64,000 nucleotides of DNA from Ignisphaera sp. (GCA_020833345.1 JAJHQM010000002.1:6190-70189); one strand, 5' to 3'. Numbered from the stretch's first letter, positions 15,808 through 53,586 are shown. Numbers and translations: made by a program. The notes: a model not told the origin generated them from the sequence alone.

Positions 15808-17268
15808 ATGTGTGGGGCTCTGCTGCTACCACGAAAGAAAAATGAAAGTAGCTTTATTAGGGGAGGTAATAGTAGCAATGTAAAACAGTTGAGATCCATA
15901 AGAATTGAAAATCTAAATGAGTTGTGTTTGGAGGTCTTAAGGAAGTACAACGTGAATTTAGTTGAGGTCATAATATGCATAGATAAACAAGGGGTAGCGA
16001 GATATCTAATTAACGAACCTCCAATAAACTTAGAGCTTCAGAAACTATATGAAAGTCTTATGGAAAACCTTTATACTTCCTACTTTAGCTTAGAATCGTT
16101 TGAAGATCTTAAAAAAGCCTTGGAAAAACTGTCTTCTGAGTTAAATTTAGAGAATTTATTGCACAAGTATTATGACATAGTAATTTACTATGTGTATAGG
16201 GATGTTAAAGGGTACGGAATTTTAGATGTTGTATTAAGGGATGAGGGTGTAGAGGATATTGAGCTGTCTCACTGGTCAAAGCCAATTACAGTTGTTCATA
16301 GAGATTTTCTGTCATATGAAGCACTTATGACCAATATTCAATTTCAAAGTGATGAAGAAGCTAGAAATTTTATAGATAGACTTGCCATAAAATGTGGAAA
16401 GTCAATATCAATAAGAAAGCCAGAGCTTCATGCCACGCTTCCTGAGGGCTTTAGAATTGCAGCCACCATTGGTGAACCAATAGGATCAAGCCCTACTTTT
16501 GATATTAGAAAGCTTACGGCAGTTCCTATAGACATAATAACATTAATTAAGCAAGGTGTTGTAGACCATAAGGTTGCAGCACTATTATGGCTTGTTAATG
16601 ATGCAAAACTTTTTTATGTGGTTATCGGCGGTAGCGGTTCAGGTAAAACAACACTTTTAAACGCATTTTTGCAATTGAGCAACCCCAATTGGAAAATTAT
16701 AGTTGTTCAAGACATTCCTGAGATAAAGCTTCCACTAAGACCAAGATTCATACAATTCTATGGTGAGGACTCAGAAGAGTTACTTCAAAGATGTATTACT
16801 GCACTTAGATATAGACCTGACATGCTAGTAGTTGGTGAGGTAAGAGGAAAAGAAATAACAGCTCTAGTTAGAGCAGTGGCGTCAGGCTCAGGTTCTGCAA
16901 CAACTTTTCATGCATCAACACCTGAAGAATATGAAATGGCTTTACGTGGCCTTCTTTCACAAGACTTGTATACTATGCTTTCATTAAACACGGCATTAAT
17001 GATATATGTGTCAAGAATGCGTAGAGGTTACAGAGTTGAAAGAAAGATATGGAAAGTTTTTGAAAAAGTTGGTGATGAGTGGAGGGAAATATTTGTACCT
17101 GACAAAGTTGATAGCATATTAAAGAGTTATACAATAAAAAGACTCTCAAAGAGATTACTAAGAGATGATATTGAGGCAGAGTATGAATATAGATTAAAAA
17201 TATTAGAAAACATGAGCCAAGGCTACGAATCTGTGGAAAGGATTCTTAGAAGATTTTATGGTATATAG
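15808..17268 (+). CDS. Type II/IV secretion-system ATPase (FlaI/ArlI / VirB11 / PilB-like)
   Basis: Walker A VIGGSGSGKTTLLNA and the PDMLVVGEVRGKE box. FlaI-like N-terminal region (ARYLINEPP). No adjacent TadC/FlaJ-like membrane partner. Confidence 0.75.
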   Translation: MCGALLLPRKKNESSFIRGGNSSNVKQLRSIRIENLNELCLEVLRKYNVNLVEVIICIDKQGVARYLINEPPINLELQKLYESLMENLYTSYFSLESFEDLKKALEKLSSELNLENLLHKYYDIVIYYVYRDVKGYGILDVVLRDEGVEDIELSHWSKPITVVHRDFLSYEALMTNIQFQSDEEARNFIDRLAIKCGKSISIRKPELHATLPEGFRIAATIGEPIGSSPTFDIRKLTAVPIDIITLIKQGVVDHKVAALLWLVNDAKLFYVVIGGSGSGKTTLLNAFLQLSNPNWKIIVVQDIPEIKLPLRPRFIQFYGEDSEELLQRCITALRYRPDMLVVGEVRGKEITALVRAVASGSGSATTFHASTPEEYEMALRGLLSQDLYTMLSLNTALMIYVSRMRRGYRVERKIWKVFEKVGDEWREIFVPDKVDSILKSYTIKRLSKRLLRDDIEAEYEYRLKILENMSQGYESVERILRRFYGI

Positions 17269-21615: not shown

Positions 21616-22299
21616 TCAATAGGTAACGTCTCTAATTGCAATTATAATTCCATATGGAGGTATGCATAACAGTATGCTTTTCTTAATGTCAAACCTTCTA
21701 CAAGTAAGCATGGTAATGAAGAGTAGAAGTATATATAGCAATACTGCTATTAAGGGTATGAAACTGTATAGCAAGGTTTCAATTGCTAAACTAATAAATA
21801 CTAAGCCAAAACATATTAGAGCAGTAGGTAAATCACTATAATAAAACTTAAGTGACTCGTGCAGTTGTATAGTATTTTGATGCTGTGCAAAAGCCATTGT
21901 AGTACCAGCTTTTTTCTTAAAATCTATAAAAAATTGAATGATTTTAATAAACAGAATGGACAAGAAAGTCAATTCTATTAATATTATTAAATCGCCTGTG
22001 AATAGGAAAAAGAGAAGAGCCTCAGCAAGTAATTGATACCTCTTTTTATAATAAAGTACAATTAGAATCTCTATTATAATTAATGGTATTAGAATAAGTG
22101 TGAATGTTAATAGACTTTGTAAAAGGGCTGGAACTTTAATAGCAATATCGTTGTAAAGTAGCGATGTTGAGGTATTTGGCAAGCGCATTAATATATTTAT
22201 GGATTTTGTAGCTAAAAAAGATGCATAAAGATGCAAGAGTATAATGCCATAAAGAACAGTGTAAATATTGCTTAACATTTTTACATGTTGGCTATCCAT
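21616..22299 (-). CDS. Hypothetical polytopic membrane protein (227 aa)
   Basis: Several long hydrophobic segments; no recognisable family motif. Confidence 0.4.
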   Translation of the reverse strand: MDSQHVKMLSNIYTVLYGIILLHLYASFLATKSINILMRLPNTSTSLLYNDIAIKVPALLQSLLTFTLILIPLIIIEILIVLYYKKRYQLLAEALLFFLFTGDLIILIELTFLSILFIKIIQFFIDFKKKAGTTMAFAQHQNTIQLHESLKFYYSDLPTALICFGLVFISLAIETLLYSFIPLIAVLLYILLLFITMLTCRRFDIKKSILLCIPPYGIIIAIRDVTY

Positions 22300-22412: not shown

Positions 22413-25313
22413 ATGGTTTACAATTTTATGAAGTGTGATGATAAAGTAGTGGAATACTATGCAAAATTAGGCTTTGCTAGTCTAACTGAGATTCAGAAAA
22501 TGACTTATGCTAAGGTAATGTGCCACGATTTAGACTTACTAGTAGCTGCGCCAACAGGCTCTGGTAAAACTGAGGCAGTTATTGTTCCACTATTTGTTAA
22601 ACTAACTAATGTAGGTTTTTTAAGTAGCGAAGGTATTGCTGTACTATACATTACGCCTCTTAGAGCTCTTAACAGAGATCTTAAGAAGAGATTGAGTAAT
22701 ATTTGTAATATTTTTAATTGTAGTGTGGATGTATGGCATGGTGATACATCCTACTCGGTGAGGAAGAGAATTGTTAAAGTACCTCCTCATATTCTTTTAA
22801 CAACACCTGAAAGCCTTCAGATTTTACTAATTAGAAAAGAGTTGACAAGACACCTAAGCAAGTTATATGCAATAATTATAGACGAAGCACAAGAGCTGAT
22901 ACAGGATGAAAGAGGTTTAGAGCTGCTCTTAGCTATAGAAAGACTCGAAAACATGTTGAAGAGACATGTTAGGAGAATAGCATTAACAACAGCATTAGAT
23001 GAAAAAAATTTAAGGCTTATAGGAGAGGCAGTGTTCTTTAATAGGCATTATGAAATAGCCCTAGCAAATACAAAGAAGAGATACGACGTAAGTGTTAAGC
23101 TTTCCAATGAGAGTTATCAAGCAGGCTTTTTTAGTACAGATGATATTATCAAGAAAATTATTGAGGTAATCAAATCGGGAGTACTTAGGCAAATACTGGT
23201 ATTTACTAATACAAGAACATCAGCTGAAGAGCTTAGCTATTTGCTGAAGTCTAAAGGGGGATTAGAGGAGAATATCGTAGGTCTGCATCACGGGTCTCTT
23301 TCAAAAAGCATTAGAGAAGCTGTTGAAAAGAGCTTTAAGGAAGGTCAGATAAAAGTTGTTGTTGCAACTTCCAGTCTTGAACTTGGTATTGATATAGGTA
23401 AAGTGGATTTCGTCATCCAATACCTATCCCCTAGGCAGGTTTCAAGGCTCTTACAGAGAATTGGCAGGGCAGGGCATAGAGAGGATGAAATGTCAAAAGG
23501 AGTAATAATATCACCTCCCATAATTTCAGAACTTGTTGAATCACTAATAATTGCGAAGAGGCTGGAAAGAGGTAATTTAGAACCCTTGAATATTCATATA
23601 AATAGTCTAGATGTGTTAGCACATCAGTTTGTAGGTTTAGCTTTAGAGCAAGGTTCAGTAACGCTGACAAGTTTCTGGAAAATGGCGAGAAGAGTAGCAG
23701 CATTTCAAGGCATAAGCTTTGATGTTGTGGAAAAGCTAGCGCAATTCCTTAACGATATTGGACTTGTAACATGCCGTAAAGATGAGCAGGAGCTCATATG
23801 CAGTCCTACAAAAAGAGGATATATATATTATGTAACGACAAACATGATACCCGATGCTAGTGAATTTTATGCAAAATCTGTTATAGATCACAAAGTAATA
23901 GCATCATTAGATGAAGATTTTGTTGCGTTGTGCAATCAAGACGATGTAGTAGTTCTCGGCGGAAAGGCTTGGCAAGTTGTTGATGTAAATTATGATGAGA
24001 GAACAGTATGGCTAACTCCTTTATTAAATGCTGGGTATGTAACGCTACCTAGGTGGGTTGGTGAAAATATTCCTGTATACGAAAAAGTTGTGAGAGAAAC
24101 CTGTTCATTTTTTAGGCGGCTCTGCTCTTGTAAAGATGAGACTTGTTTAGACAAGCTCTTCACTTCTTATAAGCTTGATGAAGCAATAAGAAGATTCATA
24201 GTTGTAAATATGAATAATATATGTAGAGTCTACCCAAGTGATAATGTACTTACAGTAGAACTGTATGAAGTCCCTAATGATAATAAATCATTCATAGCGG
24301 TGTATCATTGCTTAGGCTCTAAAGGCTCAGAAGCTTTTTCATTACTTTTGCTAAGAATTCTTAGAGAGTATTTGAATACAGGTGGTAGCTACAAATCACA
24401 TCAAATTGGAACGGTAATTTTAACAAATAGGAGTATTTCTACTGACGAGCTTAAGAAAGTTCTTAGCGTACTAATTCAACTAAATAAAAGCGGTTCTGTA
24501 AGAGAGGCTATAATTGATGAGTTGAAAAAATCATCATTATTTAAGAAGCGTATTATTGAAGTAGCAAAGAGAATGGGAATAATAGCTAAGAATAGTAGCA
24601 TAGAGGAGATAAAGAGGATATTTAATGTGTTGTTAAACATGGAGTTACTCGTCAACGAAACAATTAGAGAACTACTCACAGAAAATCTAGATGTGGAAAC
24701 TGTTGAGAATTTTTTACAAAGACTTAATAAAAATAGAAAGATTAGAATTGTTGTAACGAAAACAGCATCACCATTTTTACAAGAAATTACTCAGCTAGGT
24801 TCTCTACGGTACATTATTAAGAGTAGCATGCTGTCAAGAAATATGATTATTGAAATAGCAAAACGTAGGCTACTGAATAGAAAGACCAAATTGATTTGCC
24901 TCATATGTAACTACGTATTCGAGATTGATATAAACGAATACCTTACAGAGAAATGTATTGATAAAAATCCATTCAAATGCCCCATCTCATGCCCTCATTG
25001 CGGATCCAAGTCACTTGCTGTCGTGGAAAGTGATAATGAATTACAAGAGCTCAAAAATATGCTAATTAAATTAAAGAAGGAGGAGCATTTAAAAATAAAT
25101 GTAGTTGAGTTGAAAAACATAGAAAAGTTTTTGAAAGTAGCAAATCTTGTGATGGACTACGGTTTGGCAGCTCTTGTAACTCTCAATGGTATTGGCATTG
25201 GTGTTGAATTTGCAAAGAGAATTCTGGCAAAATCACATGATTGGAATTCGCTAATATCCAACATATTGGAATACGAGGAAAGTTACCTTAGGACACGAAA
25301 ATACTGGAGCTGA
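22413..25313 (+). CDS. Large SF2 helicase, Lhr-like, with C-terminal 4-Cys zinc ribbon
   Basis: Motif I AAPTGSGKTEA. Motif II IIDEAQ followed by ERGLELLLAIERL (Lhr-like DExH...RG..LE..L.RL). Motif VI QRIGRAGHR. C-terminal CLICN...CPHCGS. Confidence 0.6.
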   Translation: MVYNFMKCDDKVVEYYAKLGFASLTEIQKMTYAKVMCHDLDLLVAAPTGSGKTEAVIVPLFVKLTNVGFLSSEGIAVLYITPLRALNRDLKKRLSNICNIFNCSVDVWHGDTSYSVRKRIVKVPPHILLTTPESLQILLIRKELTRHLSKLYAIIIDEAQELIQDERGLELLLAIERLENMLKRHVRRIALTTALDEKNLRLIGEAVFFNRHYEIALANTKKRYDVSVKLSNESYQAGFFSTDDIIKKIIEVIKSGVLRQILVFTNTRTSAEELSYLLKSKGGLEENIVGLHHGSLSKSIREAVEKSFKEGQIKVVVATSSLELGIDIGKVDFVIQYLSPRQVSRLLQRIGRAGHREDEMSKGVIISPPIISELVESLIIAKRLERGNLEPLNIHINSLDVLAHQFVGLALEQGSVTLTSFWKMARRVAAFQGISFDVVEKLAQFLNDIGLVTCRKDEQELICSPTKRGYIYYVTTNMIPDASEFYAKSVIDHKVIASLDEDFVALCNQDDVVVLGGKAWQVVDVNYDERTVWLTPLLNAGYVTLPRWVGENIPVYEKVVRETCSFFRRLCSCKDETCLDKLFTSYKLDEAIRRFIVVNMNNICRVYPSDNVLTVELYEVPNDNKSFIAVYHCLGSKGSEAFSLLLLRILREYLNTGGSYKSHQIGTVILTNRSISTDELKKVLSVLIQLNKSGSVREAIIDELKKSSLFKKRIIEVAKRMGIIAKNSSIEEIKRIFNVLLNMELLVNETIRELLTENLDVETVENFLQRLNKNRKIRIVVTKTASPFLQEITQLGSLRYIIKSSMLSRNMIIEIAKRRLLNRKTKLICLICNYVFEIDINEYLTEKCIDKNPFKCPISCPHCGSKSLAVVESDNELQELKNMLIKLKKEEHLKINVVELKNIEKFLKVANLVMDYGLAALVTLNGIGIGVEFAKRILAKSHDWNSLISNILEYEESYLRTRKYWS

Positions 25314-25330
25314 GTTAAGATACTGTATTT

Positions 25331-25346
25331 CGAAAACATTTTATAA
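25331..25346 (+). promoter_or_regulatory. Candidate BRE/TATA promoter for the 25371-27236 membrane operon
   Basis: CGAAAACA followed by TTTTATAA (25339-25346), centred about 28 nt upstream of the ATG at 25371. This spacing is typical for leaderless crenarchaeal transcripts. Confidence 0.35.
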
Positions 25347-25370
25347 GTAAGGTTGTTTTTGGGAGTCAAA

Positions 25371-25643
25371 ATGGATATAGTCTCATTAATAAAGGATTTA
25401 ATAAGCAAGGCCGTTGTAGTGGCTTGGCTTCTCTTTTTCCTTTCATGGATTGTAGGATGGGCTATAAAGGGGGCGCCAATACCTATGGGCAGAGCTAGGA
25501 AAATTGGTCAAGGACTTATTGAAGACGCTGTATGGGGTGCTTTTTGGATTGCTGTTGGCACGACTTTATTTTGGCTCATCACCTATATATCATCATATCT
25601 AGGAAACGCTCTTCCATCACCACCTACACCACAAATGCCATGA
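25371..25643 (+). CDS. Small two-helix membrane protein (candidate VirB2/CedA1-like pilin)
   Basis: Hydrophobic helix AVVVAWLLFFLSWIVGWAI, basic loop KGAPIPMGRARKIGQG, second hydrophobic helix VWGAFWIAVGTTLFWLITYI. Start taken at the ATG (MDIVSL). Confidence 0.4.
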   Translation: MDIVSLIKDLISKAVVVAWLLFFLSWIVGWAIKGAPIPMGRARKIGQGLIEDAVWGAFWIAVGTTLFWLITYISSYLGNALPSPPTPQMP

Positions 25644-25671
25644 TATGCGATTCAAACTAAAACTATTTTGA

Positions 25672-27051
25672 ATGTGTTATACGATGTATATATTTTTAAT
25701 TACGTATTACCTAGCTATTCTAACCTTTTATCTAGGTGTATTGATATATTCTTTACCAATACCACTTAGTAATTTAAAGCGATGGGCTCCAAGATTAATA
25801 GCTGATGCCTTTTACATCATGGCGTTGTTGTTTAGCATTTCATCTATAGCGAGGTTTAGTGAGGCTATACAAAGTTTACTGGGTGGGAGCTGGGAGTTTT
25901 TCTTATCATATATGAAAGCTTCAATATTTTTTAGAACGCAACTCTTAGTGTTTTTAGGTACGATAAATGGTATCATAACCCAATTCAAGTTCTTATTGGG
26001 ATTAACTAGGCTCATTTCAATGATCATAAGAGTCATTTCTGCATCGCTTTACGCTTTTACAATTATGTATGCTATTGCAACATTCGTTAGATATTCATTT
26101 TGGTCACTTATAGCACTAGGCCTAGCATTAATGGCTATACCATTTAGAATAGCTCGTAATGCTGGTGCTTTTCTAATAGCATTTGCACTTGTTTTCAATA
26201 CGGCATTACCATTATACATTCAGTTTACAAAAACATTAATATTATCTGAAGATAAGGAATTTGATACTCCAATAATTTTTGGTAACATCATTAATATGGC
26301 TAATAAACCTCTATATACAGGCTACATAGGACTAGAATATCCAGGTGGATATATAGGTCCTATACCAGTATATTCTTCCACATACATTGTACCGGCTGTT
26401 AAATATTTGCAAGAGAATTTAACTGTATACTATGACGTTTGTGGACACATATTTTATACTAATATTACTAGTGTTTCTGTAATGAACCTTTGCAAAGGCG
26501 TAGCACTTTGTAAAGTCAATATGATGGTATATGGCTTGGTGGAATATAGAGAAGGAATAGCTCTTCATGCTAAGCCGTTTCCAAAATTGGTAAATGTAAC
26601 AATATTCACCTCAAATTACATAGAAATTTACACAGAATCAGATATAGAATATGAACTTTACGTATCTATAGTCGATAGTTACAAGATAAAATCCTTTAGA
26701 GTTGATAGTGAAGATATAGGTGATGTTAACAACTTTTACAAGTATAGATGGTATTGGTATAACTTAAATGGGAAGACATACGCAACCCCTGTTCCACCAG
26801 GTAAACATAGAATAGAAATTGAGTTGACCAAAGATTCTAATTCTTTAGTAGAACCTGATGAAAGCTACATATACGAAGCACAAATAAAACTCGTAAGCCA
26901 AGCTAATGCCCCTGGACTTTTTGATGAAGTAACACGAATTATGTACATAGACATAATAGGAGCTACTTTTTATGTATCACTACTCTTGTCAATAAGCTTT
27001 GCCCTTGCAAGATTGTTAGGAGGTGCAACTAGGCTTAGGGTAACGCTATGA
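25672..27051 (+). CDS. Polytopic membrane protein with large extracytoplasmic domain (candidate CedA/VirB6-like)
   Basis: About six N-terminal TM segments, a roughly 200-aa Tyr/Asn-rich soluble region, and a C-terminal TM anchor. Tightly packed between two small TM ORFs. Confidence 0.4.
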   Translation: MCYTMYIFLITYYLAILTFYLGVLIYSLPIPLSNLKRWAPRLIADAFYIMALLFSISSIARFSEAIQSLLGGSWEFFLSYMKASIFFRTQLLVFLGTINGIITQFKFLLGLTRLISMIIRVISASLYAFTIMYAIATFVRYSFWSLIALGLALMAIPFRIARNAGAFLIAFALVFNTALPLYIQFTKTLILSEDKEFDTPIIFGNIINMANKPLYTGYIGLEYPGGYIGPIPVYSSTYIVPAVKYLQENLTVYYDVCGHIFYTNITSVSVMNLCKGVALCKVNMMVYGLVEYREGIALHAKPFPKLVNVTIFTSNYIEIYTESDIEYELYVSIVDSYKIKSFRVDSEDIGDVNNFYKYRWYWYNLNGKTYATPVPPGKHRIEIELTKDSNSLVEPDESYIYEAQIKLVSQANAPGLFDEVTRIMYIDIIGATFYVSLLLSISFALARLLGGATRLRVTL

Positions 27052-27236
27052 TTATTGAAAAAGAGCTTGTAAAGAAAATACTATTATTTAACGTGTTTGC
27101 AATACTAACTCTAATAATAGTTTACAGAAGCCTCGACTTAATAGTAGTAACAACGTTGCTCATATTTATAGTAGTAACAACGTTACTCATAATTACTTTA
27201 ACAACTGCTTCTGAGAACCTCACTTTTCAAGGCTGA
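27048..27236 (+). CDS. Small two-helix membrane protein (62 aa)
   Basis: ATGA overlap with the preceding gene. Hydrophobic throughout. Contains an in-frame 27-nt tandem duplication. Confidence 0.4.
   Translation: MIIEKELVKKILLFNVFAILTLIIVYRSLDLIVVTTLLIFIVVTTLLIITLTTASENLTFQG
27141..27194 (+). repeat. 27-nt tandem duplication (2 units)
   Basis: ATAGTAGTAACAACGTTGCTCATATTT followed by ATAGTAGTAACAACGTTACTCATAATT, encoding IVVTTLLIF then IVVTTLLII. Confidence 0.9.
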
Positions 27237-27273: not shown

Positions 27274-27411
27274 ATGAGTGGTGATTGCTTGGCTAAGTTA
27301 AAGTGCCCTAAATGCGGATATTTTTGGGATTATAAGGGTAAGAAGCAGTACTATGCTACATGCCCTAACTGCTTTAGGAACGTAAGCATAGTTAAGCATA
27401 GAATAGAATAA
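27274..27411 (+). CDS. Small zinc-ribbon protein (45 aa; below ORF-track cutoff)
   Basis: Own translation: MSGDCLAKLKCPKCGYFWDYKGKKQYYATCPNCFRNVSIVKHRIE. CPxCG...CPNC ribbon. Confidence 0.35.
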   Translation: MSGDCLAKLKCPKCGYFWDYKGKKQYYATCPNCFRNVSIVKHRIE

Positions 27412-28859: not shown

Positions 28860-29621
28860 ATGAGCATTAGATTGGTATACCCAGTCGGATCTGTATTAAA
28901 AACAGTATCGCAAGTATTAAAACGTATTGTAGACCAAGTACCTATAGTAGTTAGCTTAGATCAATTCTCTATAGAAGCCTTTTCACCAGATAAAGTCTCC
29001 ATGATAATTACATCAATTCCTTCTACAGCATTTGAAGAGTATGCCGTAAGTAGTGAAGTAAGTATGATTGCCGACAGAGATGAGCTGGCAAGAGCGCTAA
29101 AGAGAGCCACTAAGAGAGATAAGGTAACTTTAGAGTATGTTGAAGGTACAAGAGAGCTTAAGGTCAAGGTATTCAATGTTAGAACAAATTTGGAGAGAGA
29201 ATACTCAGTATCATTATCTGAAGTAGGTTTTGAGAAAGTAGGTGAGTTAGATGTCCAGCTCGATGTTTCTGCAAGTATACCTTCATCAGAACTCATAGCT
29301 GTGATTAAAGATATTGCAATTGTAAGTGAGGAAGTGACATTAATGTACTCCTCTGAACTTAACGGTATAAAGGTTTCAGCGCATGGCGACATAGGATCTT
29401 ATGAAACAGTACTTAAGCAATTCCAACCGTTAACATATCTGGAATCTTCTGTAAGTAATGTTGTAGCAAAGTACAGCGTTGAACATTTAAAAGCCATTGC
29501 GAAGCTCCTGGATTTGGTGGATGAATGCAATATTGCGTTTGGTTCTGATAAACCGCTAAAAATCTCATTTGATATATCAGGTGGAGGAAAGGTTAGCGTT
29601 TGGATTGCTCCAAGGTCTTAA
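28860..29621 (+). CDS. pcn: DNA polymerase sliding clamp (PCNA), paralogue a
   Basis: 253 aa. PCNA-like pattern (IPSTAFEEYAVS..., ...KISFDISGGGKVSVWIAPR). Confidence 0.85.
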   Translation: MSIRLVYPVGSVLKTVSQVLKRIVDQVPIVVSLDQFSIEAFSPDKVSMIITSIPSTAFEEYAVSSEVSMIADRDELARALKRATKRDKVTLEYVEGTRELKVKVFNVRTNLEREYSVSLSEVGFEKVGELDVQLDVSASIPSSELIAVIKDIAIVSEEVTLMYSSELNGIKVSAHGDIGSYETVLKQFQPLTYLESSVSNVVAKYSVEHLKAIAKLLDLVDECNIAFGSDKPLKISFDISGGGKVSVWIAPRS

Positions 29622-29634
29622 GAGGAAACCATAT

Positions 29635-29988
29635 ATGTATAGTGATGTTGTAAAAATTGATTCAAAGGGCAGAATAACGATACCCTCAGCGATAAGGCTA
29701 CTTCTTAATATGGAAGAGGGGGACAAAATGGTCCTACTATTTGATGAAGATGAGCTTAAGATCGAGTTACTTAGCACCAAGGCGACCAATGTAATCGTTT
29801 GTAAATTGCTTGACGATTTTAAGAATGTTGTAGAGATGCTTAGGAAACTAAGTAATGGTGTAATAGCATTTAGTTGTAGATGCTATGACACATCTTGTAA
29901 TAAATTCAGGTGCAAGTTCATTCTAGAGGAAAAAGCATTGAAGAGCTCAAATAATATGAGTTTGCAGTGCCTCTCTACGAACCTATAG
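29635..29988 (+). CDS. AbrB/SpoVT-domain DNA-binding protein
   Basis: MYSDVVKIDSKGRITIPSAIRLLLNMEEGDKMVL is a swapped-hairpin AbrB/SpoVT motif. ORF-track start 29569 overlaps PCNA and is probably too early. Confidence 0.7.
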   Translation: MYSDVVKIDSKGRITIPSAIRLLLNMEEGDKMVLLFDEDELKIELLSTKATNVIVCKLLDDFKNVVEMLRKLSNGVIAFSCRCYDTSCNKFRCKFILEEKALKSSNNMSLQCLSTNL

Positions 29989-30077
29989 GCACTCCTACTC
30001 CTTAATATTGTTAACGAGGTGCTATACCTTATTAATTTCCTAACTATTAATCATGTGTAGTAGAGTGAGGAGACAGC

Positions 30078-30845
30078 ATGAGCTCAGCCTTAAGATTTGT
30101 ATTTGCAGATGCTAAGGTTTGGAGATATGTACTAAGAGTTTTAGCAGATTACTTAGAGGTCATAGGAATAAAAATAAGCCCAAGTGAAGGGGTTAGGATA
30201 AAAGCCATGGATCCTAGCAGGGTTATGCTATTAGACTTCAGCATACCAACATCAGCTTTTGAAGAATACATTGTTGAGAAAGAGGAAGTACTATTTTTAA
30301 ATCTAGAAAACATTTCAAAGATATTGAGAAGGGCTGCCAGATCGGACAAGCTAGCGCTCTCTACCGATGGTGTAAAACTCACTATAGCTTTGATCTCCAA
30401 GAGTGGCACTCAAAGAAGTTTTATGTTACCTCTCATATCCTCAACATATGAAGAAATTCCAGAACTTTCACTCGAATTCAAAGTTGAAGCAAAGATTATC
30501 GGCCCTATCTTTGCTACAGCTATATCAGTTCTTGAAGAAGTTGGCGATGCAGTAAAATTCAAAGTATTACATGAGGGTCTTGCTATGTCATCTTCATCAG
30601 AATTGGGTGAGATAGAATTCCTTTTCACTACCACTACGGGAACTTTAATAGATTATCAGGTAGCTGAGGGATTTTCAGAGTTCTCTAATACATATTCAAT
30701 GGAGTATATATCTATGCTGTCACAACTAGCAAAGTTATCAGAAACTGTTTCTATAAAGCTTGCACCTGAAGTGCCATGTGAAATCTCATTAAATATGACA
30801 AGCGGTGCGCAATTGAAGATCTATGTCGCACCAAGAATTGAATGA
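30078..30845 (+). CDS. pcn: DNA polymerase sliding clamp (PCNA), paralogue b
   Basis: 255 aa starting MSSALRFVFADAKVWRYVLRVL. IPTSAFEEYIV parallels paralogue a. C-terminal LKIYVAPRIE. Confidence 0.85.
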   Translation: MSSALRFVFADAKVWRYVLRVLADYLEVIGIKISPSEGVRIKAMDPSRVMLLDFSIPTSAFEEYIVEKEEVLFLNLENISKILRRAARSDKLALSTDGVKLTIALISKSGTQRSFMLPLISSTYEEIPELSLEFKVEAKIIGPIFATAISVLEEVGDAVKFKVLHEGLAMSSSSELGEIEFLFTTTTGTLIDYQVAEGFSEFSNTYSMEYISMLSQLAKLSETVSIKLAPEVPCEISLNMTSGAQLKIYVAPRIE

Positions 30846-30860
30846 GGAGCACCCATAACA

Positions 30861-32066
30861 ATGGAAAGTACAAAGGTGAAGAATGAAGTACATATTTTTA
30901 AGAACTTATTTAAAAAACATTATAAGGAAACCCAACTCATATTACCACAAGACCTAGCACTTAGAGAAGTGGCATTACAACCTATTGATGGGAATTACTA
31001 TGTACGTCACTTAGCATTTGAAACAGAAAAGCAACTAATAGAATACATAACACATGTTCACATACCAAAGCATCTTTACTATTCATCAGCTAAATATAAG
31101 GATCCTGGTAATCAGATAATGAATGAAAAAATGTGGTTAGGCAGTGATCTTGTATTTGACATAGACGCAAATGAGATTTTACAATGCAAGGACAAGGTTA
31201 TTGAAATTACATTTTGTAAAAAATGTGGCTACACAGCTACGGGAGAAAGTAGTGAAAGACTGTGCCCTTTATGCGGTAGTGAAGTAGCAAAATTTGAGCA
31301 TGTAGAGCCTCAATGTCTAAAGTTAGCATTTGAATATCTAAAAAACCTTGTAGATATTATTGAGAGCGATTTTGGTTTCTCTACATATAAAGCCAGCTTT
31401 TCTGGTAATAGAGGCTTTCATTTAATAGTGGAGCTGCCTAATCCACATGATACTATAGATGTTGAAAGTCGCAGGGAGCTGGTATCCTATATAGCACTTA
31501 GTGATGCTTATAAAAAAATCATTAAAAATGTATATGTAGCTAATAAGAACAGAAAAGGCTCAGCATATCCATTGCCAAGGATATGTGACGGTGGAATAAG
31601 GAGGAGGATTGCAAAGGCTTTACTTAAAAGAGTAGCAGATGCAAAACTTAAAGAATTCTTATTAAATTGCTTAGATAAAATTGAAAGCGGTAAACTCAAA
31701 GAGCTTCTAGACATCTTGGTTAACAATATTGATGATATTTTAAATGAAGTAGCAGTGCCTATAGATTCCAAGGTAACTATAGATGTAACACATTTAGTAA
31801 GAATACCTAATAGTTTAAATGGTAAAACAGGATGGAAAGCATTTTTAATAAAGGACTTAACAAACTTTGAGCTACAATATCATGAGGTTTCACTGGAAGG
31901 TGTTACTGAGCTTTTCAAGATCAAGATACTAGTAGACCTACCAACAATTACTGTAATAGATAGAGTTTTTAAAATAAGGCGAGGAGATATTATAGAACTT
32001 GAATATGCGTATGCCTCATATTTTGTTTTTAAGGGTGTTGCAGAGCTCTTAACTATAGTGAGATGA
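30861..32066 (+). CDS. priS: DNA primase small (catalytic) subunit PriS
   Basis: Catalytic DLVFDIDA, zinc knuckle CKKCGY...CPLCGS, SGNRGFH motif. 401 aa. Confidence 0.85.
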   Translation: MESTKVKNEVHIFKNLFKKHYKETQLILPQDLALREVALQPIDGNYYVRHLAFETEKQLIEYITHVHIPKHLYYSSAKYKDPGNQIMNEKMWLGSDLVFDIDANEILQCKDKVIEITFCKKCGYTATGESSERLCPLCGSEVAKFEHVEPQCLKLAFEYLKNLVDIIESDFGFSTYKASFSGNRGFHLIVELPNPHDTIDVESRRELVSYIALSDAYKKIIKNVYVANKNRKGSAYPLPRICDGGIRRRIAKALLKRVADAKLKEFLLNCLDKIESGKLKELLDILVNNIDDILNEVAVPIDSKVTIDVTHLVRIPNSLNGKTGWKAFLIKDLTNFELQYHEVSLEGVTELFKIKILVDLPTITVIDRVFKIRRGDIIELEYAYASYFVFKGVAELLTIVR

Positions 32067-51889: not shown

Positions 51890-52504
51890 TTAGCTGTTCA
51901 TAGGGTTGTTTCGGGATAGCAATACTTTGTATCCTTTTTTTGAAGTTCTTAGCTCTACATTGCCAAATACTTGTTGCATTAAGTTCTTAACGCTTTCAGC
52001 TCCTTTTCTAACAACAATTTGTAAAGATCCGCCTGGTTTTAGGTAATGCGGCGCTTCAGTTATTATTCTTTCTACTATATACATTCCTGCAGCAAATGGT
52101 GGATTGCTGTAAATGGCTTCAAAGGTCATGTTTTTAACAGGGTCGTAAACATCTCCCTGCAGTACTATAACTCTATCTTTTTCTAAACCATTTCTTTCAA
52201 CATTTCTTTTTGCTAGCCTAACCGCCTCCTTATTTATGTCAACCATATAAACCTTTAGTTTTGGATTTAGCTTTGCTAGTGTAATTCCTATAACACCATA
52301 ACCACAGCCTACATCAAGCACTGTTCCTTCAGATGGTATTTCTGCATATTCGAGTAGGAGTTTTGTTCCTTCATCTACATGCTCGTATGAAAAAAGACCT
52401 GGAGTAACTTCAAATTCTATTGTAATTCCCCTAATTATATCTGAGATAATCATGTATTGTGTAGTTCTTTTGCGGGAATACTTATAATAATGATTATTGC
52501 TCAT
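51890..52504 (-). CDS. Class I SAM-dependent methyltransferase (RsmC/MJ0882-like small-domain MTase)
   Basis: VLDVGCGYGVIG (motif I) and NPPF (motif IV). ORF-track start 52573 overlaps cbf5; the Met at 52504 is more plausible. Confidence 0.6.
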   Translation of the reverse strand: MSNNHYYKYSRKRTTQYMIISDIIRGITIEFEVTPGLFSYEHVDEGTKLLLEYAEIPSEGTVLDVGCGYGVIGITLAKLNPKLKVYMVDINKEAVRLAKRNVERNGLEKDRVIVLQGDVYDPVKNMTFEAIYSNPPFAAGMYIVERIITEAPHYLKPGGSLQIVVRKGAESVKNLMQQVFGNVELRTSKKGYKVLLSRNNPMNS

Positions 52505-53287
52505 ATTTTTCTTCCTTCTTAGTCTTTTTCCATAACGGTGGGTAGACACTTCTGTCCATAACAACTCGCTCAATCTTTACTGCTACTCCTCTCTCAATAT
52601 TAGCAATTTCCTCTGCTTCCATAGTACTCCTACCTATAGCTACAAGCTCTCCCTTTAATGTAAATATTGCTACTCTTTCACTTTTTTTAACATCATGTGA
52701 GAGCATTACTATGCCTGGCACTGCCAATTGGGCTCCATGTGCAACGGCATCAACAGCTGAATCCTTTATGATAATTTTTGGTAAATGTGCTACAACGTAC
52801 TCTATCGGCAAAACAACTTTGCGAAGAAGAGTATCATCACCATACTTTCTCCACAGATATACAGCTTCACTAACATCATGCAGCGTTACAATAGGTAATT
52901 CCTCTCTTATGTGAGCTACAGCAACTCTTCTCAGCTCTCTCATGTGAGCTTCAACACCTAAAATAAGCCCTATATCATGGCACAGCTTCCTTACATAAGT
53001 TCCAGACTCACATCTAATTTTAAAAAGGACATGTCTATTCATGACTTCAAGTAATTCTATTGAATAAATTTCTCTTATTCTTAAAGACCTCTTGACCGAG
53101 GATCTTAAAGGGGGTTTTTGATAGACTTTTCCTGTAAACATTTTAAAAACTGTATGGAGTTTCTCTAAATCTACATCGTCATGAAGCTCCATGAGTGTAA
53201 CATATTCTTTGCTTGAGTGCATTAACACTCCTATAACTCTCGTTGCCTTCCCCAATGCTATGGGTAGTACCCCAGTTACCTTGGGGT
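52494..53287 (-). CDS. cbf5: tRNA/rRNA pseudouridine synthase Cbf5, exon 2
   Basis: (D)PKVTGVLPIALGKATRVIGVLMHSSKEYVTLMELH... through the PUA domain. Joined to exon 1 after removal of 53288-53324. Confidence 0.85.
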
Positions 53288-53324
53288 ATCCCCACCCAAA
53301 CCACTAATCTTGGTGGTTTGGGTT
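53288..53324 (-). other. 37-nt bulge-helix-bulge intron in cbf5 pre-mRNA
   Basis: mRNA sense AACCCAAACCACCAAGAUUAGUGGUUUGGGUGGGGAU. Outer helix GGGG/CCCC, central helix CCCU/GGGG, bulges AG^A and AU^A, 11-bp inner helix. Removal restores the frame and the GGTLDPKVTG motif. Confidence 0.75.
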
Positions 53325-53586
53325 CTAGGGTCCCCCCATGACCAGCCTTTTCAATACTAAACATCTTTTTGATCCACGCAACAACTTCATGACTTGTAGG
53401 TCCAGGCGGCTTATCTAGGGGTATAAAACCATATTCTATGTACAGATTAATTGGTCTCTCAAAAGGATAATGACCATATCTTTCATCAGTTGCCTCTTCG
53501 GACTTAACTATATAACGGGAATCTCTATGAGCAAGTTTATCTAGCTCCCTTAAAAACTCCATACCTTTGCTTATTAAAACACTCAA
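53325..53586 (-). CDS. cbf5: Pseudouridine synthase Cbf5, exon 1
   Basis: ...GFIPLDKPPGPTSHEVVAWIKKMFSIEKAGHGGTL(D). True start may be the ATG at 53562 (MEFLREL). Confidence 0.85.

What the first reader, a model, noticed from the sequence alone, without database searches (positions are those of the whole stretch)
25331..27236. Three-gene membrane operon with the architecture of the Ced/Ted (VirB2/VirB6-like) archaeal DNA-import apparatus
The operon consists of tightly packed genes with a 28-nt gap and a 4-nt overlap:
1. A 90-aa protein of two hydrophobic helices joined by a basic loop (AVVVAWLLFFLSWIVGWAI - KGAPIPMGRARKIGQG - VWGAFWIAVGTTLFWLITYI). This is the VirB2/CedA1 pilin layout.
2. A 459-aa protein with about six N-terminal TM helices (VirB6/CedA-like), plus a roughly 200-aa extracytoplasmic domain and a C-terminal anchor.
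3. A 62-aa two-helix protein (CedA2-like).

The crenarchaeal Ced system is described as CedA (polytopic) plus two small membrane proteins (CedA1, CedA2), with the ATPase CedB encoded elsewhere. CedA1 was recently shown to form a conjugation-like pilus. The large extra domain and the gene order differ from Sulfolobus. The locus also sits in an IS-scarred accessory block next to a repair-type helicase. It could therefore be a divergent or undescribed variant of a DNA-uptake or exchange machine. The assignment rests only on topology and size.
Basis: inference. Interest (0 to 1): 0.65.

Follow-up and report, generated by a model that had tools for sequence, protein, structure and literature searches.

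The report
Ced DNA-import pilus locus of Ignisphaera
These three genes are the membrane core (pilin, channel and a small helper) of the known crenarchaeal Ced DNA-import system, in an Ignisphaera-like hot-spring archaeon; what is unusual is that the two motor ATPase genes found beside them in related archaea are missing here.

Summary
ORF1 (25371-25643, 90 aa) is a CedA1 pilin. It scores 101.3 bits against the NCBIfam CedA1 equivalog (cut-off 100) and matches the solved Aeropyrum pernix Ced pilus subunit 8DFU at E 1e-22. ORF2 (25672-27051) is a long-form CedA: a VirB6-like helical bundle, two extracellular beta-sandwich domains and a last membrane helix. ORF3 (27048-27236) is a real, conserved two-helix gene at the CedA2 position, but profile comparison shows no likeness to CedA1.

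The window is core chromosome of an Ignisphaera-like archaeon, not an IS-scarred accessory block. The "extra" CedA domain is the normal form outside Sulfolobaceae: 75 of 78 loci have a CedA of 450-531 aa.

In about 80 related genomes cedA1-cedA is universal. Most have cedB directly downstream. Many have a divergent cedD|lhr pair upstream, then cedA1, cedA, the small ORF and cedB. The Ignisphaera clade (16 genomes plus this window) keeps lhr-cedA1-cedA-small ORF but has no cedB or cedD within 10 kb. I could not establish whether these ATPases lie elsewhere in the genome.

Verdict: new member of a known kind, with a locus architecture of moderate specialist interest.

The parts
25331..25347 (+). 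BRE/TATA-like promoter element (cgaaaacaTTTTATAAg), centred about 27 nt upstream of the cedA1 ATG. This implies a leaderless or near-leaderless transcript.
   Evidence: Read from the sequence. An aAACAyTTTwTAA-type motif sits at the same distance in 15 Ignisphaera-clade loci. Promoter function is inferred, not shown.
25371..25643 (+). cedA1: 90-aa VirB2-like pilin of the Ced pilus. Two helices are joined by the basic loop KGAPIPMGRARKIGQG, followed by a Pro-rich C-terminal tail.
   Evidence: NCBIfam NF041797 Ced_CedA1 101.3 bits, cut-off 100. PDB 8DFU_B 'Pilin protein' E 9.9e-23 over residues 2-77. Precomputed Pfam PF27251 'CedA1' on the identical JGI gene. dN/dS 0.03-0.09.
25672..27051 (+). 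cedA, long form: 459 aa (455 aa from the ATG at 25684). The protein is a VirB6-like polytopic channel or platform.
   Evidence: NCBIfam NF041796 Ced_CedA 117.8 bits, residues 4-191 against model positions 4-193 of 259, below the equivalog cut-off of 330. 58 homologues of about 450-530 aa carry PF27251. AF2 pLDDT 91. Orthologues are followed by cedB in most genomes.
25672..26247 (+). CedA N-terminal helical membrane bundle (residues 1-192, six helices). The first hairpin is homologous to CedA1.
   Evidence: AF2 helices 2-27, 38-69, 74-103, 106-141, 143-155 and 162-190. The CedA profile hits pilin 8DFU at E 4e-4. hhalign of the CedA1 family against the CedA N-terminus gives 97.4%, E 1.4e-11.
26272..26832 (+). 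CedA extracellular beta-rich insert (residues 201-387): two tandem beta-sandwich-like domains with conserved Cys residues and a conserved FYTN(I/V)(S/T) sequon.
   Evidence: Domain-only AF2 model: pLDDT 90.6, pTM 0.86. No significant Foldseek match in PDB, and only marginal low-TM matches in BFVD. N-glycosylation sequons are 1.67 per 100 aa here against 0.09 elsewhere in the protein. The insert is cleanly absent from the short CedA of L015, L018 and L023.
26917..27048 (+). CedA C-terminal membrane helix (residues 416-448) plus the conserved cytoplasmic tail LLGGxxRLRV.
   Evidence: AF2 helix 416-448. G450, G451 and R456 are invariant or nearly so. The segment is retained in the short-form CedA.
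27048..27236 (+). Small two-helix membrane protein (62 aa) at the cedA2 position. Its termini are basic and its inter-helix turn is short and polar or acidic. Its role is unknown; it may be an adaptor between CedA and the ATPase.
   Evidence: 4-nt ATGA overlap with cedA. A 49-69-aa two-TM ORF occupies the same position in more than 35 species-level genome loci, including an uncalled one in I. aggregans. dN/dS 0.19-0.23. No Pfam, NCBIfam or PHROG hit. hhalign against the CedA1 family gives 0.4-0.6%.
27141..27195 (+). 27-nt tandem duplication inside ORF3. It duplicates nine residues of the second helix (VVTTLLIFI / VVTTLLIIT).
   Evidence: TRF: period 27, 2.0 copies, 92% match. Absent from the L004 and L007 orthologues. 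Present without indel variation in four metagenome assemblies.
22413..25313 (+). lhr: 966-aa Lhr-type SF2 DNA helicase with a C-terminal zinc ribbon. Its stop lies 57 nt upstream of cedA1. It is a conserved neighbour and a possible DNA-processing partner.
   Evidence: Pfam DEAD, Helicase_C, WH_Lhr and DEAD_assoc. NCBIfam PRK13767 and ligase-associated DEXH helicase as best hits, both below their cut-offs. An Lhr gene lies within 3 kb upstream of cedA1 in 32 of 61 genome loci with enough flank, and directly adjacent on the same strand in 26. The cedD|lhr pair persists even where cedA is absent.

Best explanation

Shown here:
- ORF1 is an orthologue of CedA1, the VirB2-like pilin whose lipid-containing pilus was solved in Aeropyrum pernix.
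- ORF2 is an orthologue of CedA, the VirB6-like polytopic protein. Its first helical hairpin is itself CedA1-like.
- The genes are chromosomal, under purifying selection, and preceded by their own BRE/TATA-like element.

Inferred from the characterised Sulfolobales and Aeropyrum systems:
- CedA1 inserts into the membrane without signal-peptide cleavage and is polymerised with lipids into a hollow pilus or pseudopilus on a CedA platform.
- DNA passes through this conduit and through CedA into the cell, driven by HerA/VirB4-like ATPases (CedB, CedD). It is then used for recombinational repair.

Inferred from the anatomy found here:
- The two beta-sandwich domains inserted before the last CedA helix face outward. 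They probably contact the S-layer, the pilus base or the partner cell.
- The small two-helix protein is an accessory subunit, possibly a membrane adaptor for the ATPase.
- The upstream Lhr helicase may process the transferred DNA.

In this lineage the ATPase genes are not at the locus. I assume they are encoded elsewhere, as cedB is in Sulfolobus, but that is unproven.
For: - CedA1: NF041797 101.3 bits, at or above the cut-off of 100. 8DFU pilin E 1e-22, 45% identity across the whole helix-loop-helix.
- CedA: best NCBIfam family is CedA (6e-34), next is its paralogue CedE. All 58 homologues are crenarchaeal and nearly all carry the precomputed PF27251 'CedA1' hit. The CedA1-like N-terminal hairpin described by Beltran et al. 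(PMC9905601) is reproduced.
- Seven helices are predicted, matching the 'six or seven TM' description.
- Guilt by association is strong. In Hyperthermus, Ignicoccus, Aeropyrum sp., Acidilobaceae, Pyrodictiaceae and Desulfurococcaceae, the orthologous cedA1-cedA pair is followed by an ATPase whose best NCBIfam family is CedB. It is often preceded by one whose best family is CedD.
- Purifying selection acts on all three genes.
- The context is core chromosomal. There is no PHROG hit and no viral contig.
- The function of the family is established experimentally in S. acidocaldarius and Sa. islandicus: deleting cedA, cedA1, cedB or cedD abolishes DNA import (PMC11868833, PMC11823120).
Against: - No CedB- or CedD-like gene or remnant lies in the 64-kb window or within 10 kb of the locus in 14 Ignisphaera-clade genomes examined by tblastn. 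Three database searches found no ATPase attributable to Ignisphaera.
- CedA scores below the NCBIfam equivalog cut-off (117.8 against 330), because the model is built on the short Sulfolobales form.
- Foldseek found no VirB6 (TrwI) match for the model, and Pfam VirB6/TrbL did not hit. The VirB6 link therefore rests on the literature.
- ORF3 shows no detectable relation to CedA1. Its relation to Sulfolobus CedA2 is untested.
- There are no expression data and no functional data for any Ignisphaera.
Confidence: 0.85

Rival explanations
1. Reduced or rewired Ced. In the Ignisphaera clade cedB and cedD have been lost rather than relocated. The retained lhr-cedA1-cedA-small ORF module then works in one of two ways. 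Either it only makes a surface filament or adhesion structure, or it is powered by a different motor, for example the orphan PilB/VirB11-family ATPase at 15808-17268 or the Lhr helicase.
For: - 16 species-level genomes of the clade plus the window lack both ATPases within 10 kb. Every cedB whose context I could read elsewhere sits directly after cedA or the small ORF.
- Sister lineages look like intermediates. L082 keeps cedD|lhr and cedA1-cedA-small ORF but has no cedB. L092 and L093 keep cedD|lhr without cedA.
- No Ignisphaera-attributable CedB or CedD appeared in three searches.
- An orphan secretion-type ATPase lies within 10 kb of the locus in 13 genomes of the clade, and in no other clade apart from one distant homologue in L083.
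Against: - S. acidocaldarius also encodes cedB and cedD away from cedA, so being unlinked is normal for this system (PMC11823120).
- My searches scored only 8000 word-sharing candidates or listed only the top 150 representatives, and they lacked organism names. Absence is therefore not shown.
- The orphan ATPase sits next to rpl2, so its proximity may only reflect ancestral synteny.
- Strong purifying selection on cedA1 and cedA fits a fully working machine as well as it fits this rival.
Confidence: 0.12
2. The three proteins are unrelated membrane proteins that merely share size and topology with Ced components. This is the null reading of an inference made from topology alone.
For: ORF3 has no family hit at all. 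ORF2 is below the curated CedA cut-off and has no PDB or Pfam-A match in the local libraries.
Against: - ORF1 passes a curated equivalog cut-off and matches the solved pilin at E 1e-22.
- ORF2's N-terminal 190 residues match CedA at 6e-34. Its orthologues are operonic with CedB-like ATPases in dozens of genomes.
Confidence: 0.01
3. The genes belong to an integrated conjugative plasmid or other mobile element, as a conjugative T4SS remnant in an accessory island, rather than to a host DNA-import system.
For: The Ced system is evolutionarily derived from conjugative T4SS (PMC9905601).
Against: - The flanks are ribosomal protein, PCNA, primase, SecY and tRNA-synthetase genes. No integrase, transposase, relaxase or VirD4 was found.
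- GC content is uniform.
- The same neighbourhood is conserved from Ignisphaera to Hyperthermus and Desulfurococcaceae.
- There are no viral-contig or PHROG matches.
Confidence: 0.02

Closest known systems
Ced system of Aeropyrum pernix (CedA1 pilus, PDB 8DFU; Beltran et al. 2023, PMC9905601)
   Same: The CedA1 pilin is clearly orthologous: E 1e-22, and the WxLFLLSW...GxPIP...LIEDxxW motifs are conserved. No cleavable signal peptide is expected, because the alignment starts at residue 2-3 of the unprocessed pilin. A long-form CedA of about 455 aa lies directly downstream of cedA1 in an Aeropyrum sp. genome (L053).
   Different: In Aeropyrum-type loci cedB follows cedA within a few nucleotides, and there is no small two-helix ORF and no Lhr. 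Here cedB is absent from the locus, while a small ORF and an upstream Lhr are present. The Ignisphaera CedA1 has an extra Pro-rich C-terminal tail.
Ced system of Sulfolobus acidocaldarius / Saccharolobus islandicus (CedA, CedA1, CedA2, CedB, CedD, CedE; PMC11823120, PMC11868833)
   Same: The same families give the best hits. cedA is flanked by two small two-helix genes (saci_0567 and saci_0569), as here. The ATPases are encoded away from cedA, as may be the case here. This is the system in which DNA import was demonstrated.
   Different: The Sulfolobales CedA model is short (259 positions) and lacks the roughly 190-aa extracellular beta-rich insert. Sulfolobales also use Ups pili for species-specific aggregation, and no Ups assignment could be made here. 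Homology of ORF3 to CedA2 is untested. UV induction is untested.
Extended Ced loci of Pyrodictiaceae, Hyperthermus and Desulfurococcaceae
   Same: The order lhr-cedA1-cedA-small two-helix ORF is identical, and PCNA and rpl3/rpl4/rpl23/rpl2 genes are also nearby.
   Different: Those loci also carry a divergent cedD upstream of lhr and cedB after the small ORF. Both are missing in the Ignisphaera clade.
Ted system of Thermoproteales (TedC pilin 8DFT, TedA, TedB)
   Same: Same overall logic: a VirB2-like pilin, a VirB6-like channel and a VirB4-like ATPase, chromosomally encoded.
   Different: There is no sequence similarity. The Ted pilin entry did not appear in the PDB sequence search at E <= 10. 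TedC has a cleaved signal peptide (PMC9905601). This locus is Ced, not Ted.
Bacterial conjugative T4SS inner-membrane module (VirB2, VirB3, VirB4, VirB6; 'extended VirB6' proteins such as F-plasmid TraG)
   Same: A pilin of two helices with a basic loop, and a polytopic channel whose N-terminus resembles the pilin. From my own knowledge, not tested here: some VirB6-family proteins carry a large extracytoplasmic domain used for mating-pair stabilisation, and VirB3 is a small membrane protein paired or fused with VirB4. The long-form CedA and the small ORF next to cedB recall these.
   Different: There is no detectable sequence or Foldseek match to VirB6, VirB3 or VirB2. Relaxase, VirD4, VirB8-11 and outer-membrane components are absent. 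The direction of transfer in Ced is import. The genes are chromosomal and not mobile.

Membership tests
CedA1 (NCBIfam NF041797 / Pfam PF27251; VirB2-like Ced pilin) | Sequence matches the curated family model at or above its cut-off | tested here: met
   101.3 bits against a cut-off of 100, E 2.2e-29, model positions 1-73 of 75. The margin is narrow, but the hit is corroborated by the next row.
CedA1 (NCBIfam NF041797 / Pfam PF27251; VirB2-like Ced pilin) | Homology to the subunit seen in the solved Ced pilus | tested here: met
   8DFU_B E 9.9e-23, residues 2-77 against 3-78. 25 invariant columns across five clades.
CedA1 (NCBIfam NF041797 / Pfam PF27251; VirB2-like Ced pilin) | Two hydrophobic helices joined by a basic loop, with no cleaved signal peptide | tested here: met
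   Hydropathy and alignment. The N-terminus aligns to the unprocessed A. pernix N-terminus. No SignalP-type tool was available, so the absence of cleavage is inferred.
CedA1 (NCBIfam NF041797 / Pfam PF27251; VirB2-like Ced pilin) | Assembles with lipids into an extracellular pilus | not testable with these tools
   Needs cryo-EM of Ignisphaera filaments.
CedA (NCBIfam NF041796; VirB6-like channel) | Sequence matches the curated family model at or above its cut-off | tested here: not met
   117.8 bits against a cut-off of 330. CedA is still the best family (E 6e-34), covering model positions 4-193 of 259. The shortfall is explained by the insert and by a model built on the Sulfolobales short form. 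The Hyperthermus and Ignicoccus orthologues behave the same way.
CedA (NCBIfam NF041796; VirB6-like channel) | Six or seven transmembrane helices, with an N-terminal hairpin homologous to CedA1 | tested here: met
   AF2 predicts seven helices. The CedA profile hits 8DFU at E 4e-4. hhalign gives 97.4%.
CedA (NCBIfam NF041796; VirB6-like channel) | Encoded next to cedA1 and, across genomes, with the CedB ATPase | tested here: met
   cedA1-cedA are adjacent in 78 loci. cedB is directly downstream in 42 of 61 loci with enough flank, though not in this clade.
CedA (NCBIfam NF041796; VirB6-like channel) | Structural similarity to VirB6 (TrwI) | tested here: inconclusive
   Foldseek of the full model against PDB gave no VirB6 hit among the listed matches, and nothing at E <= 1e-3. 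All-helical membrane bundles are hard cases for this method. The link is taken from PMC9905601 and PMC11868833.
CedA2 (Sulfolobales small Ced subunit) | Small two-helix membrane protein encoded adjacent to cedA | tested here: met
   62 aa, two helices, 4-nt overlap with cedA. The position is conserved in more than 35 species-level genome loci.
CedA2 (Sulfolobales small Ced subunit) | Sequence homology to Sulfolobus CedA2 (saci_0567) | not tested
NCBIfam returned no CedA2-type hit.
CedA2 (Sulfolobales small Ced subunit) | VirB2/CedA1-like pilin character (proposed for CedA2 in PMC11823120) | tested here: not met
   hhalign of the small-ORF family against the CedA1 family gives 0.4-0.6% probability. 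The charge distribution is inverted: basic termini and an acidic or polar turn, against the basic loop of CedA1 (alignment).
Complete Ced system | CedB (VirB4/HerA-like ATPase) present | tested here: inconclusive
   Absent from the window and from +/-10 kb in the clade. Genome-wide presence could not be checked. Searches found no Ignisphaera-attributable CedB, but they were not exhaustive.
Complete Ced system | CedD (second HerA-like ATPase) present | tested here: inconclusive
   Absent locally. The search with the closest CedD bait found nothing attributable to Ignisphaera.
Complete Ced system | Induction by DNA damage and DNA import activity | not testable with these tools
   No RNA run holds the locus. 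No genetic system is available.
Ted system (Thermoproteales) | TedC-type pilin with a Sec signal peptide; TedA and TedB nearby | tested here: not met
   Only the Ced pilin 8DFU was matched in the PDB at E <= 10. No VirB4-like gene is nearby.
Conjugative plasmid / ICE T4SS | Mobile-element context: integrase or relaxase, VirD4, variable presence | tested here: not met
   The flanks are housekeeping genes with conserved synteny. There are no viral contigs and no PHROG hits.

The most novel reading that the evidence does not exclude
The Ignisphaera clade runs a Ced-type pilus and channel without the canonical CedB/CedD motors, which were lost from the ancestral cedD|lhr-cedA1-cedA-small ORF-cedB cluster. 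DNA uptake or pilus assembly would then be driven by another motor, such as the neighbouring Lhr helicase or the orphan PilB/VirB11-family ATPase. In the same reading, the outward-facing beta-sandwich insert of long-form CedA takes over the partner-recognition role that Ups pili play in Sulfolobales. A weaker and more likely part of this reading is that the small two-helix protein is a VirB3-like membrane adaptor for CedB, and that Lhr is a previously unrecognised Ced-associated DNA-processing factor.
Probability: 0.12. Interest if true: 0.7.

Novelty: new member of a known kind. Interest (0 to 1): 0.35.

Why it matters
On its own the locus only extends the known Ced family to Ignisphaera. That was expected, since ced genes have been reported in Desulfurococcales since 2016. 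Its value lies in the comparative picture it opened, which has four parts.

1. Outside Sulfolobaceae, CedA normally carries a confidently predicted, glycosylation-sequon-rich extracellular double beta-sandwich. The Ced papers I could read do not mention it. It is a natural candidate for cell-cell or S-layer contact in organisms that lack Ups pili.
2. A conserved chromosomal cluster links an Lhr helicase and the CedD ATPase to the pilin and channel genes. This gives a testable candidate for the still unknown DNA-processing step of Ced transfer.
3. A small two-helix gene co-occurs with CedB proteins that lack their own membrane helix. This suggests a VirB3-like adaptor, a component said to be missing in archaea.
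4. A whole clade has no linked ATPases, so it could be a natural experiment on what the minimal machine needs.

All four points are hypotheses from genome comparison, and the loci compared are not phylogenetically independent.

Tried and rejected
- **Pfam-A (local copy) on the three proteins.** No meaningful hit. The relevant family PF27251 is newer than the local library and was seen only as a precomputed annotation.
- **PDB sequence search with CedA.** Nothing for the single sequence. The profile hit only the CedA1 pilin.
- **Foldseek.** I searched the full CedA model and the isolated beta domain against PDB, and the isolated domain against BFVD. No PDB hit reached E <= 1e-3; three BFVD hits did (best 4.3e-4), but TM-scores stayed at or below 0.33. 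The top hits were generic beta-sandwiches: Gram-positive pilins BcpA and SpaD, the SSV19 tail protein 7xdi_F, and glycoside phosphorylase domains. I draw no homology from them.
- **Hunt for CedB/CedD in Ignisphaera.** None of these steps gave an Ignisphaera-attributable ATPase, and none was exhaustive:
  - a word-indexed search with a 30-sequence CedB alignment;
  - the same type of search with the closest CedD as bait;
  - a full HMMER search of 1.84 billion representatives with a CedB profile;
  - composition filtering and cluster-name look-ups;
  - context look-ups;
- **Pseudogene remnants.** tblastn for cedB or cedD remnants in the window and 14 clade loci found none.
- **Upstream membrane protein.** phmmer of all window ORFs, including the 227-aa membrane protein upstream of lhr (21616-22299), against the CedB and CedD sets found no similarity at E <= 1.
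- **IS or transposase scars near the locus.** None found.
- **RNA evidence.** No RNA run holds the locus.
- **The 2016 PNAS paper on the Ced system.** Not held in the library, so its figures on gene order in Desulfurococcales could not be consulted.


Full report
**Observation**

The three ORFs exist as described on the + strand.
- ORF1 runs from ATG 25371 to 25643 (90 aa).
- ORF2 runs from 25672 to 27051 (459 aa). A second ATG at 25684, used by the JGI gene call and favoured by the homologue alignment, gives 455 aa.
- ORF3 runs from 27048 to 27236 (62 aa). It overlaps the ORF2 stop in ATGA.

The finding's start, 25331, marks a BRE/TATA-like element (cgaaaacaTTTTATAAg). It lies about 27 nt upstream of the ORF1 ATG, and a similar motif sits at the same distance in 15 related loci. 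I infer a dedicated promoter and a leaderless or near-leaderless transcript. This is not shown, because no RNA run holds the locus.

The genes are not chance ORFs.
- dN/dS against close relatives is 0.03-0.09 for ORF1, 0.10-0.14 for ORF2 and 0.19-0.23 for ORF3. The neighbouring helicase gives 0.12-0.14.
- The sequence is identical, with no indels, in four independent hot-spring metagenome assemblies at depths up to 1326x.

**What the proteins are**

ORF1 is a CedA1 pilin.
- It matches the NCBIfam equivalog 'DNA import protein CedA1' at 101.3 bits, cut-off 100.
- It matches chain B of PDB 8DFU at E 9.9e-23 over residues 2-77. PMC11823120 names 8DFU as the A. pernix CedA1 model, and the Aeropyrum pernix CedA1 pilus was solved by Beltran et al. 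(PMC9905601).
- Twenty-five columns are invariant between Ignisphaera, Hyperthermus and Aeropyrum, including the GxPIP loop and the LxEDxxW motif.

ORF2 is CedA.
- Its best family is 'DNA import protein CedA' (117.8 bits, E 6e-34). Next is CedE, the Saccharolobus paralogue of CedA.
- The match covers residues 4-191 against model positions 4-193 of 259 and falls below the equivalog cut-off of 330. The Hyperthermus and Ignicoccus orthologues behave the same way.
- All 58 database homologues are crenarchaeal proteins. Nearly all are 436-528 aa (three shorter entries look truncated) and carry a precomputed hit to the newer Pfam family PF27251 'CedA1'. None has a functional name.
- That Pfam hit reflects a known feature: the N-terminal hairpin of CedA is homologous to the pilin (PMC9905601). 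I reproduced this twice. The CedA profile hits 8DFU at E 4e-4. hhalign of the CedA1 family against the CedA N-terminus gives 97.4% probability.

**Structure of ORF2**

AlphaFold2 with 48 homologues gave a confident model, mean pLDDT 91. It has three parts:
- six helices spanning residues 2-190;
- a beta-rich region, 201-387;
- an amphipathic helix (397-410) and a final long helix (416-448), followed by the conserved tail LLGGxxRLRV.

Modelled on its own, the insert folds as two tandem beta-sandwich-like domains (pLDDT 90.6, pTM 0.86).

Foldseek found no match at E <= 1e-3 in the PDB for the whole protein or the insert. For the insert in BFVD, three hits reached E <= 1e-3 (best 4.3e-4). TM-scores were at or below 0.33 throughout, and the top hits were generic beta-sandwiches. 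VirB6 was not recovered. The VirB6 relationship therefore rests on the literature (PMC9905601, PMC11868833).

I infer that the insert faces outward, on three grounds:
- N-glycosylation sequons are 1.67 per 100 aa in the insert against 0.09 in the rest of the protein, with a nearly invariant FYTN(I/V)(S/T) motif (consensus);
- Cys residues are conserved;
- the positive charges flanking the last helix lie on the other side.

The insert is a discrete module. Three related genomes (L015, L018, L023) have CedA proteins of 281-326 aa that lack exactly this region but keep the bundle and the last helix. That is the layout of the 259-position Sulfolobales model. The insert also evolves faster than the bundle: 13% against 34% identity to distant homologues.

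**ORF3**

ORF3 has no hit in Pfam, NCBIfam, PHROGs or the PDB. It is nevertheless a conserved gene. A two-helix ORF of 49-69 aa occupies the same position, often overlapping the cedA stop, in more than 35 species-level genome loci. One of these is an uncalled 61-aa ORF in I. aggregans DSM 17230.

It is not detectably a CedA1 paralogue (hhalign 0.4-0.6%). Its charge pattern is the reverse of the pilin's: basic termini and an acidic or polar turn. It is therefore 'CedA2-like' only in position and topology. I could not obtain a Sulfolobus CedA2 sequence to test homology.

In this genome its second helix carries a 27-nt tandem duplication.

**Genomic context**

The window is core chromosome of an Ignisphaera-like crenarchaeon (GC about 36%; its closest named relatives are Ignisphaera spp.). 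It carries:
- adenosylhomocysteinase, pyrophosphatase and rpl3/rpl4/rpl23;
- SecY and the ribosomal protein cluster;
- two PCNA genes and primase;
- RtcB, ThrRS and five tRNAs.

I found no transposase or IS remnant near the locus. The same neighbourhood is found in I. aggregans and in a 73%-identical relative. The 'IS-scarred accessory block' reading is not supported.

No P-loop ATPase of the HerA/VirB4 type is in the window. phmmer and tblastn with 70 labelled CedB and CedD sequences found no gene or remnant in the window or in 14 clade loci.

**Comparative picture**

A scan of one genome per species with a CedA1 alignment returned 80 loci. I annotated them with phmmer.
- cedA1 followed by cedA is universal.
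- CedA is 450-531 aa in 75 of 78 loci.

Among 61 loci with enough flank, three main layouts appear.
- 22 loci (Acidilobaceae, Aeropyrum, Caldisphaera, Thermodiscus and others) are compact: cedA1-cedA-cedB, with no more than 20 nt before cedB, no small ORF and no Lhr.
- 13 loci (Pyrodictiaceae, Hyperthermus, Desulfurococcaceae) have a divergent cedD, then lhr-cedA1-cedA-small ORF-cedB. PCNA and rpl3/rpl4/rpl23/rpl2 are nearby.
- 16 loci plus this window (the Ignisphaera clade) have lhr-cedA1-cedA-small ORF and no ATPase within 10 kb.

NCBIfam confirms that the flanking ATPases have CedB and CedD as their best families.

Some lineages look like intermediates. L082 has cedD|lhr and cedA1-cedA-small ORF but no cedB. 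L092 and L093 have the Lhr closest to this window's outside the clade, and they keep cedD|lhr and PCNA without cedA.

Every further CedB whose context I could read lay directly after cedA.

CedB proteins lacking an N-terminal membrane helix occur in 10 of 20 loci that have the small ORF, against 1 of 32 that lack it. These counts are not phylogenetically independent, so the Fisher p-values overstate the case.

**The open question**

Whether Ignisphaera encodes CedB and CedD elsewhere could not be settled. Two word-indexed searches, one exhaustive HMMER search limited to 150 listed representatives, name look-ups and a metagenome scan found nothing attributable to Ignisphaera. In S. acidocaldarius the ATPases are also unlinked to cedA (PMC11823120), so absence from the locus is not evidence of absence from the genome.

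**Mechanism**

The best-supported reading (confidence about 0.85 for identity) is that this is the pilin-channel core of a Ced DNA-import machine.

Shown:
- homology of ORF1 and ORF2 to CedA1 and CedA;
- chromosomal context and purifying selection;
- association of the orthologues with CedB and CedD.

Inferred from Sulfolobales genetics and the Aeropyrum structure:
- CedA1 polymerises with lipids into a hollow pilus on CedA;
- DNA enters through it, driven by HerA/VirB4-like ATPases, for recombinational repair.

Inferred from the anatomy here:
- the beta-sandwich insert makes extracellular contacts;
- the small protein is an accessory or adaptor;
- Lhr may process the DNA.

The main rival (about 0.12) is that the clade has really lost CedB and CedD and uses the module differently or with another motor. 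An orphan PilB/VirB11-family ATPase (15808-17268) lies within 10 kb of the locus in 13 genomes of the clade. It sits next to rpl2, however, so its proximity may be inherited synteny.

Chance resemblance and a mobile-element origin are rejected.

**Comparison and novelty**

The locus is a member of the Ced family, not Ted and not a plasmid T4SS. Ced genes in Desulfurococcales are already known, and current Pfam and NCBIfam models recognise the pilin. The finding is therefore a new member of a known kind.

Four things may be new to specialists, and none is mentioned in the three Ced papers I could read:
- the extracellular insert of long-form CedA;
- the conserved lhr/cedD linkage;
- the small ORF's association with helix-less CedB;
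- the ATPase-free locus of a whole clade.

These are comparative-genomic hypotheses of moderate interest.

Noticed in passing
window 52494-53586 (- strand): The cbf5/truB pseudouridine synthase gene is split into two overlapping ORFs in different frames: DKCLD domain at 53179-53586, and TruB_N/TruB_C/PUA at 52494-53255. The frame change lies near 53255-53270, just at the conserved ...DPKVTGVLPIALGKATRV motif. Four metagenome assemblies, at depths up to 1353x, show the same sequence with no indel. It is therefore not an assembly error. It is a real frameshift: a pseudogene, a split gene or programmed frameshifting.
   Followed up: partly
window 15808-17268 (+ strand): An orphan PilB/FlaI/VirB11-superfamily secretion ATPase (best NCBIfam hits BasE 239 bits and FlaI 163 bits, both below cut-off) with no adjacent PilC/TadC-type membrane partner. 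It sits next to rpl2. An orthologue lies within 10 kb of the ced locus in 13 Ignisphaera-clade genomes, on either side of it. No other clade examined has one nearby, apart from a distant homologue in L083.
   Followed up: partly
window 27325-27377: A stretch of about 50 nt inside the 45-aa zinc-ribbon ORF (27274-27411) just downstream of ORF3 has twice the assembly depth of its surroundings in all four metagenomes, and it breaks the Logan contigs. A second copy of this short sequence probably exists elsewhere in the genome.
   Followed up: no
window 27141-27195: A 27-nt tandem duplication (92% match) duplicates nine residues of the second helix of the small ORF. It is specific to this organism and absent from the 73%-identical relatives.
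   Followed up: yes
L092 7152-11704 and L093 5291-6991 (related loci): In the lineage whose Lhr is closest to this window's outside the Ignisphaera clade, a CedD-like ATPase is divergently paired with lhr and followed by PCNA, but no cedA1 or cedA is adjacent. The cedD|lhr pair therefore behaves as a module of its own, which strengthens a functional link between Lhr and the Ced ATPases.
   Followed up: partly
L015 10284-11129, L018 10162-11142, L023 10280-11128 (related loci): Three genomes within the lhr-linked group have short CedA proteins (281-326 aa). They lack exactly the beta-sandwich insert but keep the helical bundle and the last helix. The insert has therefore been lost or gained as a unit outside Sulfolobaceae as well.
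   Followed up: yes
window 28860-32066: Downstream of the locus lies a replication cluster: PCNA (28860-29621), a MazE/AbrB-like SpoVT-type protein (29569-29988), a second PCNA paralogue (30078-30845) and the primase small subunit (30861-32066). A PCNA gene also accompanies the ced cluster in Hyperthermus, Ignicoccus and Desulfurococcaceae loci. This may be ancestral synteny rather than function.
   Followed up: no
window 21616-22299 (- strand): A 227-aa polytopic membrane protein with no family hit lies divergently upstream of lhr, at the position occupied by cedD in related clusters. It is conserved in I. aggregans and L004 (220-222 aa). It shows no similarity to CedB or CedD at E <= 1.
   Followed up: partly
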